Assembly: GCA_016188455.1 (NCBI GenBank)
Contig: JACPHR010000007.1
Location: 1-56,046 of the forward strand
Reading direction: 5' to 3'
Length of the DNA: 56,046 nt
Source: Candidatus Tayloriibacteriota bacterium
GTDB lineage: Bacteria; Patescibacteriota; Minisyncoccia; Phycocordibacterales; SIBU01
The position numbers and the translations under genes were made by a program. The notes under the pieces were generated by a model that saw only the letters and a program-made list of their open reading frames with translations, did not search any database and was not told where the DNA came from. This document shows positions 49,424 through 54,774 of the stretch, piece after piece. Numbering within the stretch: the first letter of the stretch is position 1; each line of letters begins with the position of its first letter.

Positions 49424-49975
49424 CTAATAGGTTACGCGCAAGCCGCGTTCAACATAGGTCGGATTGCCCGTATCGCAAGTGTTGTGACCGCGCGATTCAA
49501 TGGTGGTCAAGCTGAAACCATCGCCGTCAGAATCGTTTTTGGCCACCGTAACATCGGCGCAGACAGGCGCGCCTAAACTAAATGAACTGACGGCATTGCG
49601 GGTATCTCTATATCCCGGAATAGGGGTAATATTTTGCTCGGCGCAGATAATTGGAGCACCGGGCGGTGAATCGGTTGAAGTGGCAAAAGCGCCTTTCAAA
49701 TCCCAATACAGAGCGCATTCGGCGCCGGAATCGGAGGCGTAAAAAGCGCTCAGCGATTCTCGGCCGAAAGACGACAAAACGACCTCGCGAAGGGCGATGC
49801 TCCAAATGGCGACCGCCACCGAAAGCAGAACGCTGGAGGCCAGAATAGCGAACAAGAGGGCGAAGCCGCGCCGCGGCGGCGCGGCTGAATCACGAATCAC
49901 GAAGCATGAATCATGATGAGGCCTTTTTTTCTCCTTTCTTTTTCTCCTATTCATAATTCCCGATTCGTTATTCAT
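49424..49975 (-). CDS. PilX-like minor pilin
   Basis: RRG|FALLFAIL...AFYASDSGAECA; leader built from heptamer repeats. Confidence 0.8.
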   Translation of the reverse strand: MNNESGIMNRRKRKEKKRPHHDSCFVIRDSAAPPRRGFALLFAILASSVLLSVAVAIWSIALREVVLSSFGRESLSAFYASDSGAECALYWDLKGAFATSTDSPPGAPIICAEQNITPIPGYRDTRNAVSSFSLGAPVCADVTVAKNDSDGDGFSLTTIESRGHNTCDTGNPTYVERGLRVTY

Positions 49976-49999
49976 GATTCTTCATTCTTGATTCTACCC

Positions 50000-50785
50000 C
50001 TACTGCGCCGGATACCAGTTAAAAATTCTCTCATTGATGACTACGCTTTTTTGAAGCAGACCGGTTTGCCAAGACACCGTGACCGCCAGGTCGGCTTCGC
50101 CGTTTAGGTCGCTCCCGACAGCAATAGGCGTAATGATAAGCTTCCTTGTAAATATACTGTCCTGTAAATTACCGACAGGGTCGCCGTTGCCATTGTCCCT
50201 ATGGTCACCGTATATGCCAGTTGATGGATCAAAAGTGAGCTGGCAGGGTCTCAATTTGGGATTGCCCTTATCATCACAATCAATAATTCGCCCGGCATTC
50301 ACATCGATACCGCATTCAGTTGATTTCTTGCAAGTTTCCAAACCCTTCAACCAATCCCCAGTTCGGGAACGACCGATTAAATTATTGTTGTCGCGGATAT
50401 TGCGCACGTATTCAATCGCCTCTTGAGCCAGATAAAAAGCCGTTACCTGGTCCCGAGCGTAAATTGAACTGTTGAGACCGCGCTGAGCCAAAGTCAAAGG
50501 CGCCACCACCACCACCGAAAGTATGGCGATGGCCACGATGGTCTCCACAATTGAGAAGCCTCTTGCCCGATGCGAAAATTGCGAATTAGCACGCGAATGC
50601 CGCGAACGAAGAATCGGCCTTCGTGTCATTCGCATGAATTCGTATATTGGCATCGCTATTTTTTGCATGGATTCGTAGTCTCGCATCGCTTTATTTCGCG
50701 TCATTCGCGTGAATTCGCAGATTAGCATCGGTTTTTTAGCGTCATTCGCATGAATTCGCAGGTTCGTGTCGCTACTACCGCACAT
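50000..50785 (-). CDS. PilV-like minor pilin with a repeat-derived long leader; start uncertain
   Basis: ARG|FSIVETIVAIAIL...AFYLAQEAIEYVRNIRD. Confidence 0.8.
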   Translation of the reverse strand: MCGSSDTNLRIHANDAKKPMLICEFTRMTRNKAMRDYESMQKIAMPIYEFMRMTRRPILRSRHSRANSQFSHRARGFSIVETIVAIAILSVVVVAPLTLAQRGLNSSIYARDQVTAFYLAQEAIEYVRNIRDNNNLIGRSRTGDWLKGLETCKKSTECGIDVNAGRIIDCDDKGNPKLRPCQLTFDPSTGIYGDHRDNGNGDPVGNLQDSIFTRKLIITPIAVGSDLNGEADLAVTVSWQTGLLQKSVVINERIFNWYPAQ

Positions 50786-51410
50786 CCGGAACCCTCTGGG
50801 AAACAAAAGTTTGAATGTCAAAACGCGACGCGGTTCTCGCTTTGGCGCCAGCGGCGGTCAAACTGCTGACAGCGCCCCCCGCGACAATTAAGACTCTGGG
50901 TTGCTGATTGGTCGCACTGACGCCGTCAACGTAAAAGTCCAGACGGTCAATGACAATTTCCGGGGCGGTCATCGGGTCGGAAGCGGCGCCGCAAGCAATA
51001 CCTTGCTTGGCTATTCTGATGGCTCCATCGTAAAAACAGTAAGTTACCGTGTCGCCCGTCTGGTCTTTAAAAGCGATAACGTTTGAAGGGCTGCCGGAAC
51101 AATCCGACCTGCCAACCCCGCCGCACTGATAATCACTGCCCGTGCGCAGGTTGCGGGCCATGCTTTCAAGCGTCAGGCTAAGGTTGTTCATGGCGGTTTT
51201 AAGCCCTTGGGCTTTGTGGTTAGCGTCAACGACGCTCAAAAGCACCGTGGTGGTGGCGAGCATCACAAAACTGAAAAGGGCGATTGAAACAATCATCTCG
51301 ACGAGCGTGAAGCCCTTTTGGGTAGAATCGCGAATCAAGAATAAAGAATCACGAGCAGCCTCGCCGGATTTTGTCATGATTTTCGTCTTTATTCCTGATT
51401 CCTGATTCAT
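50775..51410 (-). CDS. PilW-like minor pilin
   Basis: QKG|FTLVEMIVSIALF. Confidence 0.85.
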   Translation of the reverse strand: MNQESGIKTKIMTKSGEAARDSLFLIRDSTQKGFTLVEMIVSIALFSFVMLATTTVLLSVVDANHKAQGLKTAMNNLSLTLESMARNLRTGSDYQCGGVGRSDCSGSPSNVIAFKDQTGDTVTYCFYDGAIRIAKQGIACGAASDPMTAPEIVIDRLDFYVDGVSATNQQPRVLIVAGGAVSSLTAAGAKARTASRFDIQTFVSQRVPDVR

Positions 51411-51421
51411 GATTCTTGATT

Positions 51422-52378
51422 CTATTTAATGGATATCTGCCCGCTGCCTAAAACCTTTACGCCCTTGGTCACGCCCTGAGGCGAGCTTACCGTAACAAGG
51501 GCACTCAAATAAGTTACCGCTTGGCCATTGGCGGTAATGACGGGCTCCGGGTCGGGCCGGTGGAAAACAATATCAAGACTGGCCACGGAGTCGCAAGGAT
51601 TGCCCGCGCAAAGCCCGGCGATGGAGTTGCCTTTTTCAATTTTGAAAAAACTGACGCATTCGGTGTCTGAAAGACATTCACTGCCGTCATCCCCGCCGGC
51701 TTCATAGTGCTTGTTATCGTTATTATCCACAAAAAGAATAAAATAGCCGGGGGGGCCGAAATGAACGCCGTAACTTTTATCAAAACCGGCGCTGCTGTGC
51801 TTAACGCTGATACCGTAAACCTGCGCCTGGCGGATGCCGAGCGCCACGTCGTAGGCAAGGTTGGTGATAAGAATGTTGCCGCCGAAGCGGTGCTGGCTCA
51901 CTGTTATCACGCTCATGATAACAAGAAAAATGGCTATGGAGACCGCGAGTTCCACCAGCGTAAAACCTTTTGACCGATGCGAAAAATGCGAATCGGAAGG
52001 CGAATGATGCGAATTAAGAACTCGTTTTGGTTTCAGATATGTATCTTTGAAATTTACAATGAGACCGAGTTTCAAATTAGCCCCACGTAAGTATCGCTGC
52101 ATCTGCGCATAGTCATCGTTGGTAATAAATGACTTCGCTTTTGCGTCAAGTATTATTTGGTTCTCAATCAAAAAGTCAGCGCGGTTTCCTTTGGGAGAAT
52201 TTGCGTTAAACTCAATCAACTCAAATTCGCGTTTATACAAAAAATGTTCCATTTTCAATAATTCTTCTAACCGATCGGCGTATTGTCGCTCACGACAAAA
52301 ACGGCCTAATTCTTTTTGAACTTGGAAACACAAACCGTTGATTTTATAGGATAATTCCTTGTGTATGATCTCGCTCAT
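51422..52378 (-). CDS. GxxExxY (PD-(D/E)XK-like) domain fused to a FimT/GspH-like pilin
   Basis: Residues 1-~122 include ELGRFCRERQY, ADFLIENQIILDAKA and QMQRYL...GLIVNF; then SKG138|F139TLVELAVSIAIF. Confidence 0.85.
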   Translation of the reverse strand: MSEIIHKELSYKINGLCFQVQKELGRFCRERQYADRLEELLKMEHFLYKREFELIEFNANSPKGNRADFLIENQIILDAKAKSFITNDDYAQMQRYLRGANLKLGLIVNFKDTYLKPKRVLNSHHSPSDSHFSHRSKGFTLVELAVSIAIFLVIMSVITVSQHRFGGNILITNLAYDVALGIRQAQVYGISVKHSSAGFDKSYGVHFGPPGYFILFVDNNDNKHYEAGGDDGSECLSDTECVSFFKIEKGNSIAGLCAGNPCDSVASLDIVFHRPDPEPVITANGQAVTYLSALVTVSSPQGVTKGVKVLGSGQISIK

Positions 52379-52435
52379 ATTATTTTCGCGTCTCCCTATT
52401 TCGTGTCATTCGCATGCATTCGCAGATTAGCATCG

Positions 52436-53290
52436 CTACATTGTAATCAAGGCTCCCAATCCGACAACATCAATGCCGAAAAAATATACCGCCATCAATC
52501 CCAAAATAAGGAACGGCGCGAGCGGCACCTCGCTTCTCATTGTAAGATTTTTAAGCCCGCCCCGCAACGCGGGGCGGGCAAACCCGGCCCGAGACAAGGC
52601 TGGAAGCGCCAAGAGGCAAAGGGAAACAACAGCCCCGACCCCAAACCCGAGAACCACTGCCGAGATGCCGAGGGAAAAACCCAAAAACCAGCCGATGCCG
52701 AGCGCGAGTTTGGCGTCACCGAGTCCTATCCACCTGCCGGAAGAGGCCAGCCAGAGAAGAAAAAGTGGCAGGGCGAGAATCGGACCGGCCAGTAAATCCA
52801 GAAGGTGAGGCAAACGGGCGGCGGTTGAAAATTCCGCGCTCAAAAAAAGTTTAACGAGAGAAAGAAAGCCGAACAAAAAGACCAGCCGGTCGGGAATAAT
52901 CTTGTGCCGGAAGTCGTAAACGGCAATCACGAGGAGAAGGCATAGAGAAAGTAAATTGATAGAAAATAGAAAATAGAAAATAGAAAATGTGTGAAGAGAA
53001 ACGGAAGAAGAAAACTGCCAAAAGGTGGCAGCAAAAATGAGACCAGTCAGCATCTCCACCAAGGGGTACTGAAAAGAAATTTTGCCTTTGCAATGTCGGC
53101 AACGGCCCTTGAGAAAAATAAAACTGAAAACCGGCGCGAGGTCGTGCCATTTGATGTCTTTGCCGCAGGAAAAACAGCGGGAACGGCCGTCAAGGCCCGC
53201 TCCGGTGTTGAAACGCAAAATGACGACATTTAAGAAACTGCCGACGACAGTGCCGAGAGCAAAAAAGAAAAGTGTAAGAAGAATCTGCAT
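52436..53290 (-). CDS. pilD: Prepilin peptidase
   Basis: GSFLNVVILR, RSRCFSC, GRCRHC, YD...IIPD, GLGDAKL and PLAPFL. Confidence 0.93.
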   Translation of the reverse strand: MQILLTLFFFALGTVVGSFLNVVILRFNTGAGLDGRSRCFSCGKDIKWHDLAPVFSFIFLKGRCRHCKGKISFQYPLVEMLTGLIFAATFWQFSSSVSLHTFSIFYFLFSINLLSLCLLLVIAVYDFRHKIIPDRLVFLFGFLSLVKLFLSAEFSTAARLPHLLDLLAGPILALPLFLLWLASSGRWIGLGDAKLALGIGWFLGFSLGISAVVLGFGVGAVVSLCLLALPALSRAGFARPALRGGLKNLTMRSEVPLAPFLILGLMAVYFFGIDVVGLGALITM

Positions 53291-54010: not shown

Positions 54011-54774
54011 ATATCAAGGAGACTCCTTGATATTGATATTTTCAAAATCTATCCACTCTTCTAGCATATCGCCAAAATCTGAGAACGAACCAAAATAATC
54101 AGGAAAGGAACTTGGCTCAATAATTAAACCCTCGTCCCTCCTTTGTCCAGAATAATCCTGGAAACTCGAGTACTTGTAGGAATAAAGAAATTTTTTTGCC
54201 GCAGATTTGTCTTTAAGTTTTTTCTCTTTCCAACCAACATCAACAATCCCAATCGGATTGAGATGAATGTAAGCGTATTGATACTTAAGATATTCGTCTG
54301 TGTTCAGATGTTTGGCACGGAATGGTCTATTAAACAAAGTACCCTTTCTTTTATACTTGGCATTGAAGTACATTGAATAGCCAGTCAGTAATTTCCGCAT
54401 GAAAAGACTGAGGCCGTTTCCTTGTTTCTCTTTAACAAGCAAGTGAAAGTGATTCGGCATAATGCACCACGCGCCAATATCAACAATGGTTTTTCCGCCT
54501 CTTGGAATTTCTAGCAAGGAGACTCCTTGATAATTGCTCAGGTGTATGGGTATAGAGCTGTTAGCTGTATATAAAAGAGTGGTAAATCGTTTATGATCAC
54601 CAGAGTCTAAAAAGATTTTCCTTTTTTCTACAGCTCTATCGTAGAGGTGATAATATTCATTTTCCGAAAAATTTAGATTCCTGCCCATTTCTTAATTCTA
54701 CACAAATAATCTTTTTACAGCAAGGAGACTCCTTGCCTTTGAATATCAAGGAGGAATATCAAGGAGACTCCTTG
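54011..54774. repeat. REP-like palindromes caaggag-a-ctccttg (4 copies)
   Basis: At 54015-54029, 54515-54529, 54721-54735 and 54760-54774. Confidence 0.9.
54014..54688 (-). CDS. REP-associated tyrosine transposase (RAYT, Y1 HUH)
   Basis: YYHLYDR, MPNHFHLL (HUH), YSMYFN, YIHLNP and YSSF. Confidence 0.88.
   Translation of the reverse strand: MGRNLNFSENEYYHLYDRAVEKRKIFLDSGDHKRFTTLLYTANSSIPIHLSNYQGVSLLEIPRGGKTIVDIGAWCIMPNHFHLLVKEKQGNGLSLFMRKLLTGYSMYFNAKYKRKGTLFNRPFRAKHLNTDEYLKYQYAYIHLNPIGIVDVGWKEKKLKDKSAAKKFLYSYKYSSFQDYSGQRRDEGLIIEPSSFPDYFGSFSDFGDMLEEWIDFENINIKESP

What the first reader, a model, noticed from the sequence alone, without database searches (positions are those of the whole stretch)
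51422..52437. GxxExxY nuclease-like domain sits in the cleavable leader of a type IV pilin
Seen: one 318-aa ORF joins a full GxxExxY domain, a repeat-derived linker (NSHHSPSDSHFSHR) and a canonical prepilin site KG138|FTLVE. There is no in-frame start codon in the linker, and pilD is immediately upstream. Established: PilD cleaves at G|F on the cytoplasmic side and discards the leader. Inference: PilD would release the nuclease-like domain into the cytoplasm while producing a normal pilin. This could be a selfish gene using prepilin processing as a harmless insertion site, or a pilus-coupled activation switch.
Basis: partly seen in the sequence, partly recalled or inferred. Interest (0 to 1): 0.75.

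Follow-up and report, generated by a model that had tools for sequence, protein, structure and literature searches.

The report
Nuclease cassette inside a pilin leader
A small selfish-looking nuclease gene, bracketed by inverted repeats, sits in frame in the part of a pilus-subunit gene that the cell normally cuts off, so one reading frame probably yields both a free nuclease and a normal pilin.

Summary
One 318-aa ORF (51422..52378, minus strand) joins a GxxExxY/PD-(D/E)XK domain (aa 7-120), a 16-residue linker and a prepilin site KG138|FTLVE. No in-frame ATG/GTG/TTG lies between codon 103 and G138, and pilD ends 57 nt upstream.

The linker is the 3' arm of an inverted-repeat array whose 5' arm lies between the pilD stop and the ORF's ATG. 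The unit is therefore a repeat-bracketed GxxExxY cassette, a kind this scan has noted before on other DNA and that I could not find in print.

New here:
- The fusion recurs: about 50 of 63 database proteins of 174-557 aa with this GxxExxY subtype continue into a prepilin N-terminus. The join is almost always 1-2 codons before the Gly.
- Three neighbouring minor pilins carry gene-less hairpins at the same place.
- A second pilin in this genome carries an internally deleted cassette that is still in frame.

Insertions inside LepA and RecG are also always in frame, which argues for read-through translation rather than RNA excision.

Best reading: translation starts at the cassette's ATG, and prepilin peptidase separates the nuclease from the pilin. 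Cleavage is inferred, not shown. Read-level checking failed.

The parts
52436..53290 (-). pilD: prepilin peptidase / N-methyltransferase, 284 aa. Its stop TAG (52436-52438) abuts the cassette's 5' terminus.
   Evidence: Pfam A24_N_bact 5e-31 and Peptidase_A24 8e-11. Read directly: the motifs AVYDFRH and GLGDAKL and two CxxC pairs are present. Their catalytic role is recalled knowledge.
52379..52437 (-). 5' arm of the cassette: terminus (T)AGCGATGCTAATCT, then GCGAATG-type repeat units, then a Shine-Dalgarno-like AGGGAG (52392-52397) 13 nt before the ATG. An in-frame TGA in this arm closes the frame, so translation must start at 52378.
   Evidence: Inverted-repeat pairs I1, I2, I7. The long-range stem in the MFE fold pairs this arm with the linker. 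Termini compared across loci. Open frame 327 aa against ORF 318 aa.
52016..52378 (-). GxxExxY / PD-(D/E)XK domain, aa 1-121: the cassette's cargo.
   Evidence: AF2 pLDDT about 95 over aa 11-120. E30, Y33, E51, D68 and K80 are invariant and D78 nearly invariant in 30 aligned sequences. Weak Foldseek matches to Cas4 and other PD-(D/E)XK nucleases.
51971..52015 (-). 3' arm of the cassette, which is the 'linker' (aa 122-136, LNSHHSPSDSHFSHRS): ATTCGCAT-type units ending ...TTTTCGCATCGG(TCA). No stop in the pilin frame.
   Evidence: AF2 pLDDT below 50 for aa 125-136.
51962..51970 (-). Predicted prepilin peptidase site: K137-G138 | F139. The scissile bond lies between 51965 and 51964.
   Evidence: N_methyl / TIGR02532 matches. 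Motif KG|FTLVE with Glu at +5, read.
51422..51964 (-). Mature minor pilin (aa 139-318, stop at 51422-51424): hydrophobic alpha-1 helix plus a beta-sheet head, GspH/FimU-like.
   Evidence: AF2 helix 141-191 followed by strands. Weak Foldseek matches to EpsH 2qv8 and 4dq9 and to FimU 4ipu. Orthologues in 40 of 41 genomes of the order, this genome included; P0002 is 71% identical and has no cassette.
51325..51408 (-). Gene-less hairpin (GAATC/GATTC array family) translated in the leader of the next minor pilin (50775..51410, GspJ-like); it ends 3 codons before G|F.
   Evidence: RNA fold z -2.8, 3 of 200 shuffles as good. Leader MNQESGIKTKIMTKSGEAARDSLFLIRDSTQKG|FTLVE.
50568..50725 (-). Gene-less element of the same family as the cassette (termini GCGATGC...TTTTCGCATCGG) in the leader of the third minor pilin (50000..50821), plus an extra 5'-arm copy upstream.
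   Evidence: Leader ...MRMTRRPILRSRHSRANSQFSHRARG|FSIVE. The fold z-score for this stretch alone is weak (-1.2).
49863..49980 (-). Gene-less hairpin, then a G+C-rich hairpin, in the leader of the fourth pilin-like gene (49424..49975, N-terminus RRG|FALLFAIL without Glu5).
   Evidence: RNA fold z -6.2, 0 of 200 shuffles as good. No Pfam or NCBIfam match for this protein, so 'pilin-like' rests on the N-terminal sequence only.

Best explanation
An inverted-repeat-bounded GxxExxY (PD-(D/E)XK nuclease-like) cassette occupies the whole gap between the pilD stop codon and the last two leader codons of a GspH/FimU-like minor pilin. It has displaced the pilin's own start codon. The pilin can therefore only be made by ribosomes that start at the cassette's own ATG (52378) and read through the nuclease domain and the stop-free 3' repeat arm into KG|FTLVE. 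The product is a two-domain precursor with the topology of a type II membrane protein: a folded cytoplasmic nuclease domain, a flexible 16-residue tether, then the pilin's hydrophobic helix in the membrane. Prepilin peptidase, encoded by the adjacent gene, cuts after G138 on the cytoplasmic face. That yields a 138-residue free GxxExxY protein, about the size of stand-alone family members, and an ordinary mature pilin, so PilD does the work of a stop codon plus restart. Such cassettes mostly land at stop/start junctions of operons. Those that swallow the downstream start survive mainly where an N-terminal extension is harmless, and a cleavable prepilin leader is such a place. This would explain why pilins dominate the fused forms. 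Shown here: the anatomy, the recurrence, the frame conservation and the decay in place. Inferred: translation as one chain, PilD cleavage, nuclease activity and the mode of mobility.
For: Anatomy:
- Domains; the flanking inverted arms pair in the fold; no internal start.
- AF2 gives two confident domains joined by a disordered tether at aa 125-136.

Not ancestral:
- The orthologous pilin is found in 40 of 41 genomes of the order, this genome included, in open frames of 61-310 aa in the other genomes, none with the domain. The 12 leaders I read are ordinary ATG leaders of 4 to about 28 residues, e.g. MNKG|F three nt after pilD's stop.

Recurrence:
- With the nuclease domain alone as query, 64 proteins of 174-557 aa match, 63 besides the window's own. 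By my reading about 50 of the 63 run into a prepilin-type N-terminus. The 11 clear exceptions are 3 archease, RuvX, a TPR protein, MnmA, FolD, RecG, a glycosyltransferase and 2 merely extended ORFs.
- In the fusions picked out by my strict motif (39 of the 109 proteins), the arm ends in S-[HD]-R followed by 1-2 residues and then G|F in nearly all. None has Met in the last four positions before the Gly.

Persistence:
- Within pilin orthogroups the nuclease halves are 70-93% identical while the pilin halves have diverged to 38-65%, both still intact.

Several origins or moves:
- The pilin-fused label needs at least 4 changes on well-supported branches.
- The nearest relative, P0003, is fused to the orthologue of the next pilin in the operon.

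Same genome:
- 3 of 7 array elements of this family lie in prepilin leaders.
- One of them, on contig C16 after pilC, keeps the 5' arm, the cassette's ATG, the last 14 codons of the nuclease and the 3' arm, all in frame with G|FTLLE.

Against RNA excision:
- Of 120 family matches in 301 genomes, 23 lie in open frames of 518 aa or more. The 17 I classified are inside LepA-like (10), RecG-like (6) and AsnB-like (1) frames without a stop.
- 37 stand-alone copies sit between complete genes.
- I saw no out-of-frame interruption.

Prepilin biology:
- The leader is variable in length, cytoplasmic and cut by the peptidase at the membrane's inner face (passages read in PMC10191384).
Against: - No direct evidence that the chain is made, inserted in the membrane or cut. 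A 138-residue leader with a folded domain has no precedent that I found.
- Fused forms were found by protein search, which cannot see broken versions, so 'always intact' is partly ascertainment.
- In the sampled genomes of the same class, pilin fusions are rare: 1, perhaps 2, of 120 matches.
- Higher identity of the nuclease halves than of the pilin halves could also come from repeated transfer rather than co-inheritance.
- The fold z-score of the whole cassette RNA is unremarkable at -1.5.
- Foldseek matches for both halves are weak, all E >= 0.015.
- The exact pre-insertion sequence could not be reconstructed: the nearest cassette-free orthologue in the genomes searched is only 50% identical. 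Cutting the element at its consensus 8-nt termini leaves ATG-TCA-AAA-GGT-TTT (MSKG|F) but also removes pilD's stop, and the same rule is off by one base at the C16 copy (my reading).
Confidence: 0.62

Rival explanations
1. The fusion is translated, but the precursor is not processed or not assembled. The insertion has in effect disabled this minor pilin, and the cell tolerates that because minor pilins are partly redundant.
For: There is no precedent for so long a leader. The insertion is unique to this genome within its order, so it could be recent and not yet purged. Nothing tests cleavage.
Against: The 180-residue mature part is intact and 71% identical to a cassette-free orthologue. Fused architectures persist across orthogroups whose pilin halves have diverged to 38-65% while keeping the G|F motif, the hydrophobic helix and their length. 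The decayed copy on C16 has kept the frame into the pilin through a deletion of about 100 codons. That is expected only if translation into the pilin matters.
Confidence: 0.14
2. The cassette is removed or cut at the RNA level. The two repeat arms pair into a long stem, as in the intervening sequences of 23S rRNA, so the protein made is not the fusion.
For: The MFE fold pairs the 5' and 3' arms around the ORF. Arms co-vary between loci, GCGAATG with CATTCGC in some and CCGAAT with ATTCGG in others. The nuclease fold weakly resembles tRNA-splicing endonucleases, E 0.055-0.4. Some cassettes are fused to archease, which I recall as an RNA-ligase cofactor.
Against: RNA removal would free the cassette from any frame constraint. 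Yet all 17 intragenic copies that I classified are open and in frame with LepA-like, RecG-like or AsnB-like frames, as are the MnmA, FolD, RecG and glycosyltransferase cases. None of 37 stand-alone copies splits a gene. Cutting the stem here would leave a pilin message with no start codon. Exact removal would also delete pilD's stop.
Confidence: 0.07
3. The fusion is domesticated. Tethering to the membrane and release by PilD regulate the nuclease, giving a pilus- or competence-linked switch, for example acting on incoming DNA.
For: Strong bias of the fused forms towards pilins. The candidate catalytic residues are conserved in fused forms. Type IV pili of such bacteria are often linked to DNA uptake (recalled).
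Against: The same cassette kind is mostly stand-alone with its own stop and also sits in unrelated genes. The cargo is lost in place, leaving only hairpins. Presence is patchy: 68 of 301 genomes of the class carry the family, and this pilin carries it in only 1 of the 40 genomes of the order that have the pilin. Prepilin cleavage is not known to depend on pilus activity (PMC10191384 passages).
Confidence: 0.08
4. Assembly or sequencing artefact: a missing stop or a one-base error joins two separate genes.
For: Read-level check not possible.
Against: The exact protein is seen on 7 contigs, and four runs hold 0.97 of the words. Even with a stop, the pilin would have no start codon. The same join occurs in dozens of unrelated assemblies.
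Confidence: 0.02

Closest known systems
Type IV prepilins with class III signal peptides (T4a leaders of about 6 aa, T4b leaders up to about 30 aa)
   Same: KG|FTLVE with Gly at -1 and Glu at +5, a hydrophobic alpha-1 helix of about 22 residues, a lollipop-like predicted fold, a cognate A24 peptidase next door and a minor-pilin operon.
   Different: The leader is 138 residues and contains a folded nuclease-like domain. The start codon belongs to a mobile cassette, not to the pilin. The leader lengths quoted in the name are recalled; the review passages I read say only that the length is variable.
Rickettsia palindromic elements (selfish palindromic DNA inserted in frame in protein-coding genes; Ogata et al. 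2000, recalled, not read here)
   Same: Hairpin-forming repeats that sit in frame inside ORFs and are apparently translated, here in pilin leaders and in loops of LepA and RecG.
   Different: These elements can carry a 120-residue nuclease ORF between the arms. In pilins the inserted peptide can be removed by a host peptidase.
Inteins and homing-endonuclease genes
   Same: A nuclease-bearing selfish insert in frame in host genes; presence/absence at the same site in orthologues; removal at the protein level would restore a normal host protein.
   Different: Pfam finds no Hint/intein domain in the ORF. Removal would be done by a host enzyme at a host site, and only in pilins. There is no intron ribozyme. 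Cleavage of empty sites by GxxExxY is untested.
ORF-bearing intervening sequences of 23S rRNA, and MITEs with terminal inverted repeats
   Same: Long inverted arms enclose a small ORF; gene-less derivatives occur; there are multiple copies per genome.
   Different: Located in mRNA-coding DNA and kept in frame. No transposase is recognisable. A target-site duplication was not established.
Earlier notes of this scan on GxxExxY cassettes (e1-2748064, e1-801008, e1-832244, e1-1000317)
   Same: The same cassette kind: repeat-array arms, operon junctions and in-frame copies in lepA. I re-derived these points independently.
   Different: Those notes do not describe, in the lines shown to me, the in-frame fusion to the prepilin cleavage site, its recurrence, or its decay series.

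Membership tests
Type IV prepilin (class III signal peptide) | Gly or Ala at -1, followed by a hydrophobic stretch of 20-25 residues, often with Glu at +5 | tested here: met
   KG138|FTLVELAVSIAIFLVIMSVITVS. N_methyl 30 bits against a cutoff of 21.2. TIGR02532 22.2 bits against a cutoff of 16.3.
Type IV prepilin (class III signal peptide) | Short hydrophilic leader that begins with the protein's own Met | tested here: not met
   The leader is 138 aa with a folded domain. No in-frame ATG/GTG/TTG between codon 103 and G138.
Type IV prepilin (class III signal peptide) | Pilin fold: long N-terminal helix packed on a beta-sheet head | tested here: met
   AF2 helix 141-191 followed by strands; pLDDT 80-96 in most of this half but below 50 at 229-265. 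Only weak Foldseek matches to EpsH and FimU, E 0.07-0.5.
Type IV prepilin (class III signal peptide) | Cleavage and N-methylation by a prepilin peptidase | not testable with these tools
   A cognate A24 peptidase gene is adjacent; processing was not tested.
GxxExxY / PDDEXK_3 (TIGR04256, PF13366) | Family HMM match above the curated cutoff over the full length | tested here: met
   TIGR04256 68.1 bits against a cutoff of 35, profile positions 1-115 of 116. PF13366 68.3 bits against a cutoff of 22.
GxxExxY / PDDEXK_3 (TIGR04256, PF13366) | PD-(D/E)XK catalytic core: Asp, then (D/E)-x-K on the following strands | tested here: met
   D68 and K80 invariant and D78 nearly invariant in 30 aligned sequences; they lie on predicted strands 66-71 and 75-80. 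Assigning these residues as catalytic is by analogy.
GxxExxY / PDDEXK_3 (TIGR04256, PF13366) | Nuclease activity | not testable with these tools
   No solved relative by sequence. Best fold match is Cas4 4r5q, E 0.015.
Intein | Hint domain with splice-junction residues | tested here: not met
   Pfam finds only PDDEXK_3 and N_methyl in the ORF. The junctions are repeat arms.
Homing-endonuclease-type mobile gene | Presence/absence polymorphism at a defined site in orthologous genes | tested here: met
   Orthologous pilins occur with and without the cassette. The join sits 1-2 codons before Gly(-1) in nearly all fusions.
Homing-endonuclease-type mobile gene | The encoded nuclease cuts the empty target site | not testable with these tools
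TIR transposon / MITE | Terminal inverted repeats | tested here: met
   Arms at 51976-52016 and 52383-52415. Consensus termini AGCGATnCGAA...TTCGnATCGCT across loci.
TIR transposon / MITE | Target-site duplication and a cognate transposase | tested here: inconclusive
   No clear duplication at the ends that I compared. No transposase lies inside the cassette. An IS200/RAYT-like gene lies 1.6 kb away, with no shown link.

The most novel reading that the evidence does not exclude
Prepilin leaders are a dedicated landing and survival niche for a family of nuclease cassettes. The cassette supplies the start codon. The host's prepilin peptidase acts as the cassette's release factor, a host-protease counterpart of an intein. 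The nuclease may home to the conserved DNA that encodes the K/R-G-F-T-L-I/V-E junction, spreading between pilin paralogues and between genomes.
Probability: 0.2. Interest if true: 0.85.

Novelty: new variant of a known kind. Interest (0 to 1): 0.7.

Why it matters
If PilD does cut this precursor, three things follow.
- It would be the first natural prepilin whose leader is a whole folded protein. That sets a new upper bound on what prepilin peptidases and the SRP/Sec route accept, and suggests a natural design for co-producing a cytoplasmic and a surface protein from one frame.
- It would show a new way for selfish DNA to be harmless: hiding in a segment that the host already discards after translation.
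- It would give a handle on the function of GxxExxY proteins, a very large orphan family, and on the repeat-array cassettes that carry them. I could not find those cassettes described in the papers searched.

The decay series within one genome also explains where the odd, repeat-encoded long leaders of many Patescibacteria pilins come from: an intact cassette, an internally deleted cassette and bare hairpins, all in pilin leaders.

Tried and rejected
So there is no per-base check and no RNA evidence either way.
- Single-protein search for related loci gave only 12 loci. The alignment-based scan replaced it.
- Sequence search of the PDB with the nuclease domain found nothing at E <= 1. Foldseek of the whole model gave no match at E <= 0.001.
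- Empty-site reconstruction failed: the closest cassette-free orthologue among the genomes searched is 50% identical, too far for a DNA alignment of the junction. Excision at the consensus termini gave inconsistent frames at the two pilin copies.
- dN/dS was considered and dropped. At 71% or lower protein identity, synonymous sites are saturated, and most divergence would predate the insertion.
- Complex prediction for PilD with the precursor was not run. An enzyme-substrate pair is a poor use of that test, and a fail would carry no weight.
- A literature search with the term 'PD-(D/E)XK' was rejected for syntax. Searches for GxxExxY, PDDEXK_3/PF13366, long prepilin leaders, CPR pilins, CPR in-frame palindromes and pilin-nuclease fusions found no description of this arrangement. 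I saw listings and abstracts only, except for passages of PMC10191384.
- An independent pilin start from a near-cognate codon was rejected: only CTG at codon 115 is available, and no Shine-Dalgarno-like sequence precedes it.
Full report
**1. What is in the sequence**

On the minus strand, 51422..52378 is one ORF of 318 codons.
- Residues 7-120 match the GxxExxY/PDDEXK_3 family well above the curated cutoffs: TIGR04256 68.1 bits against 35, and PF13366 68.3 bits against 22.
- Residues 134-158 match the prepilin N-terminal methylation motif.
- The join reads ...KPKRVLNSHHSPSDSHFSHRSKG138|F139TLVELAVSIAIFLVIMSVITVS.

The last canonical in-frame start codons before G138 are ATG 93 and TTG 102, both inside the nuclease domain. 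The only near-cognate codon after that is CTG 115, with nothing like a ribosome-binding site before it.

pilD (A24_N_bact 5e-31, Peptidase_A24 8e-11) ends with TAG at 52436-52438, 57 nt before the ORF's ATG. Downstream follow three more pilin-type genes (50775..51410, 50000..50821, 49424..49975) and ligA. Upstream of pilD lie a GspG-like pilin and an IS200/RAYT-like gene.

**2. The linker is a terminal repeat arm**

The stretch that encodes NSHHSPSDSHFSHR (about 51971-52016) is an array of ATTCGCAT-type units. It is the inverted complement of an array of GCGAATG-type units that fills the gap between the pilD stop and the ATG (52383-52437) (pairs I1, I2, I7).
- When 51955-52440 is folded as RNA, the minimum-energy structure pairs these two arms into a long stem that encloses the whole GxxExxY ORF. 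The energy of the whole 486-nt stretch is not unusual, z -1.5.
- Across 13 related loci from other genomes, all but two or three show the same build: a 5' terminus (T)AGCGATnCGAA..., a 3' terminus ...TTCGnATCGCT, and units that differ between loci but stay complementary between the two arms of one locus.
- The 5' terminus commonly abuts or supplies the stop codon of the upstream gene (TAG|CGAT here and in several others).
- In stand-alone copies the 3' terminus abuts the start codon of the next gene, for example CGGT|ATG, GGGT|ATG and CGC|GTG.

So the unit is a repeat-bounded cassette with the nuclease gene as cargo. The genome (893 kb, 31 contigs, 98% complete) has four GxxExxY genes. The other three are stand-alone, 131-151 aa with their own stops, and one of them lies between nusG and rplK.

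**3. The insertion is not ancestral to this pilin**

The mature pilin part has orthologues in 40 of 41 genomes sampled from the same order, this genome included. In the other genomes they lie in open frames of 61-310 aa, none with the nuclease domain; the best is 50% identical. The 12 leaders that I read are ordinary, starting with ATG and 4 to about 28 residues long. One example is MNKG|FTLIE, beginning three bases after pilD's stop. In the protein collection the nearest orthologue (P0002, 71% identical) also lacks the domain.

**4. The fusion recurs**

A search with the whole ORF returned 109 proteins, many carrying both PF13366 and PF07963. To remove the pull of the pilin half, I searched again scoring residues 1-125 only. 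Among proteins of 174-557 aa, 64 match at E <= 1e-10, which is 63 besides the window's own.

By reading their sequences, I find that about 50 of the 63 continue from the nuclease domain through a repeat-arm linker into a prepilin-type N-terminus. The N-termini are GFTLVE-like or the GY(I/V)xLIxVL type of ComGG-like pseudopilins. The clear exceptions are:
- three archease fusions;
- one RuvX;
- one TPR protein;
- MnmA, FolD, RecG and a glycosyltransferase, with the cassette inside the gene;
- two merely extended ORFs.

This length window excludes stand-alone genes and the long LepA and RecG hosts, and candidates are found by shared words. It therefore measures partners among mid-sized fusions of this subtype only.

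The pilin bodies belong to several unrelated orthogroups: GspH-like, GspJ-like, ComGG-like, major-pilin-like and others. The join is very regular. The arm ends in S-[HD]-R, then one or two residues, then G|F, and no fusion has Met in the last four positions.

In a sample drawn without regard to fusion, 48 Patescibacteria-type loci from species-representative genomes, 5 cassettes are fused to a host frame. Two of these are pilins, one is RecG and two are others. About 40 are stand-alone, with a stop 3-22 codons after the domain. A prepilin motif within 600 nt downstream occurs only in the two fused cases.

**5. The fusion persists and moves**

Within four pilin orthogroups the nuclease halves are 70-93% identical while the pilin halves have diverged to 38-65%. 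Both halves remain intact, and the linkers are recognisably related.

I built a tree of 107 nuclease domains (122 columns, quick search, many unresolved forks). On it the pilin-fused state needs at least 4 changes on well-supported branches, and 17 on the best tree. Fused and stand-alone forms are interleaved. The sampling is uneven: fused rows come from the protein collection and stand-alone rows from genomes.

The window's nearest relative, P0003 (75% identical in the domain), is fused to the orthologue of the next pilin in the operon, the GspJ-like one, and not to the same pilin.

**6. A decay series in pilin leaders of this genome**

The three neighbouring pilin genes each have a hairpin element in the translated leader, ending 2-3 codons, and in the fourth gene 6 codons, before G|F:
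- pilin 2: a GAATC/GATTC-array hairpin, z -2.8;
- pilin 4: the same kind, z -6.2;
- pilin 3: an element with the very termini of the cassette (GCGATGC...TTTTCGCATCGG) but no cargo.

Genome-wide I find 7 elements of the CGAAT/ATTCG-array family, using a regular expression of my own, so weaker copies may be missed. Three of the 7 lie in prepilin leaders. The genome has 8 credible prepilin motif hits; a ninth hit looks false, and the Glu-less pilin 4 is not counted.

The third such element is on contig C16, directly after pilC. Its leader, MFNNSDANPRIHANDANNMNTVNLDNAYLKPKQILHSQHSNGNSQFSHRARG|FTLLE, consists of:
- the 5' arm;
- the cassette's ATG with two codons;
- the last 14 codons of the nuclease gene, which align base for base with 52016-52057 of the window;
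- the 3' arm.

All of this is in frame. A deletion of about 100 codons that keeps the frame into the pilin is what one expects if the pilin depends on translation coming through the cassette.

Database orthologues of the window's pilin show the end state. Their leaders are built only of the two arms, for example ...YEFMRMTR...SHHSHAFAISHRSKG|F in P0032.

**7. Translation through the cassette, or RNA excision?**

The family model found 120 matches in 68 of 301 genomes of the class. Of these, 23 lie in open frames of 518-896 aa. I fetched 20 of them. My screen recovered 17 long frames: 10 LepA-like, 6 RecG-like and 1 AsnB-like (motif-based labels of my own). The nuclease domain and both arms are in frame between conserved motifs, and 7 were read in full. 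Three fetched loci were not picked up by my screen and were not inspected further.

RadA, MnmA, FolD and a glycosyltransferase show the same pattern. The 37 stand-alone copies that I examined are wedged between complete co-directional genes:
- nusG|rplK four times, plus once in this genome;
- gap|pgk twice;
- pilB|pilC;
- pilD followed by the cassette.

I saw no cassette that interrupts a gene out of frame. RNA-level removal would not need the frame to be kept, so the simplest reading is that ribosomes read through. This bears on the pilin case. There, cutting the stem would in any case leave a message without a start codon.

**8. Structure**

AlphaFold2 with a 30-row alignment gives mean pLDDT 79.9:
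- a confident alpha/beta domain at residues 7-121, blocks at 93-98 apart from a dip to 83-87 at residues 51-70;
- a disordered tether at 125-136, below 50;
- a 50-residue helix at 141-191, followed by a beta-sheet head with one poorly predicted stretch at 229-265.

D68 and K80 are invariant and D78 nearly so in the alignment. Foldseek matches are weak, with none at E <= 0.001, but they point the expected way. Cas4, lambda-exonuclease-like, Hjc and tRNA-splicing endonucleases match the first half. EpsH and FimU minor pilins match the second half.

**9. Mechanism proposed**

Steps shown:
- the cassette structure;
- the displaced start codon;
- the open frame;
- an intact peptidase gene next door;
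- an intact cleavage motif at the end of a flexible tether.

Steps inferred from established prepilin biology (the leader stays cytoplasmic, SRP/Sec inserts the hydrophobic segment, and the peptidase cuts after Gly at the inner face; passages of PMC10191384):
- the precursor inserts with the nuclease domain in the cytoplasm;
- PilD cuts after G138;
- a 138-residue nuclease and a normal pilin result.

The bias towards pilins can be explained without invoking pilin-specific targeting. Cassettes land at stop/start junctions. Those that remove the downstream start survive only as in-frame fusions. A leader that is cut off makes such a fusion harmless. The tight spacing of 1-2 codons before Gly fits insertion next to the start codon of short-leader pilins, but it equally fits site-specific homing. 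I cannot separate the two.

**10. Comparison and novelty**

The arrangement works like an in-frame selfish insert (Rickettsia palindromic elements, recalled) and, in pilins, like an intein whose removal is outsourced to a host protease. It is not an intein: Pfam finds no Hint domain.

It meets the motif and predicted-fold features of a type IV prepilin but not the short-leader feature. The cassette kind has been noted repeatedly by this scan on other DNA. I re-derived its features myself.

I found no paper that describes it or a nuclease-bearing pilin leader. These were listings and abstracts only, and subscription journals are not covered.

I rate it a new variant of known kinds, with high interest for pilus biologists and for those who study mobile DNA. 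The rating is tempered because the central step, cleavage, is untested and the read-level check failed.

Noticed in passing
window 54014-54688 (-): IS200/Y1-type transposase-like gene. It also matches the REP-associated tyrosine transposase model at E 7.9e-12, 45 bits, below the cutoff of 80. It lies 1.6 kb from the cassette, beside the pilin cluster. No link to the repeat arms was shown.
   Followed up: no
L004 (own genome, contig C30) 1480-1875; L062, L073, L075, L081: The nusG|rplK junction carries a stand-alone GxxExxY cassette in this genome and in four other sampled genomes: a recurrent landing site in a ribosomal operon.
   Followed up: partly
L131 (own genome, contig C16) 258-857 (-): A second pilin gene, directly after pilC, has a leader that is an internally deleted cassette: 5' arm, cassette ATG, last 14 nuclease codons and 3' arm. 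All of it is in frame from an ATG that overlaps pilC's last codons.
   Followed up: yes
L054 405-1666: In a Parcubacteria genome a stand-alone cassette, 64% identical in the domain, also follows pilD directly. Here it is followed by a 57-aa ORF and ligA, with no minor-pilin genes between.
   Followed up: partly
L029 and L031: GxxExxY cassettes in frame inside RadA/Sms, just after the Walker A motif (GIGKSTLLLQL). In RecG one of the two insertion sites is likewise just after the P-loop (L023).
   Followed up: no
window 52436-52438; L026, L053, L060: The stop codon TAG of the upstream gene overlaps the cassette's consensus 5' terminus (T)AGCGAT. The element may therefore bring the stop for the gene that it lands behind.
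   Followed up: partly
L001 (own genome, contig C1) 389-850 (+): Next to another GxxExxY copy lies a small ORF whose sequence looks to me, from memory and without an HMM check, like the four-helix-bundle '23S rRNA intervening sequence protein' family. It sits within a conjugation-like gene cluster.
   Followed up: no
repeat units ATTCGCAT / ATGCGAAT (window 51976-52016, 52397-52423): The core unit has no stop codon in any of its six reading frames. Stops arise only from the spacers between units, which may be why so many arms read open.
   Followed up: no
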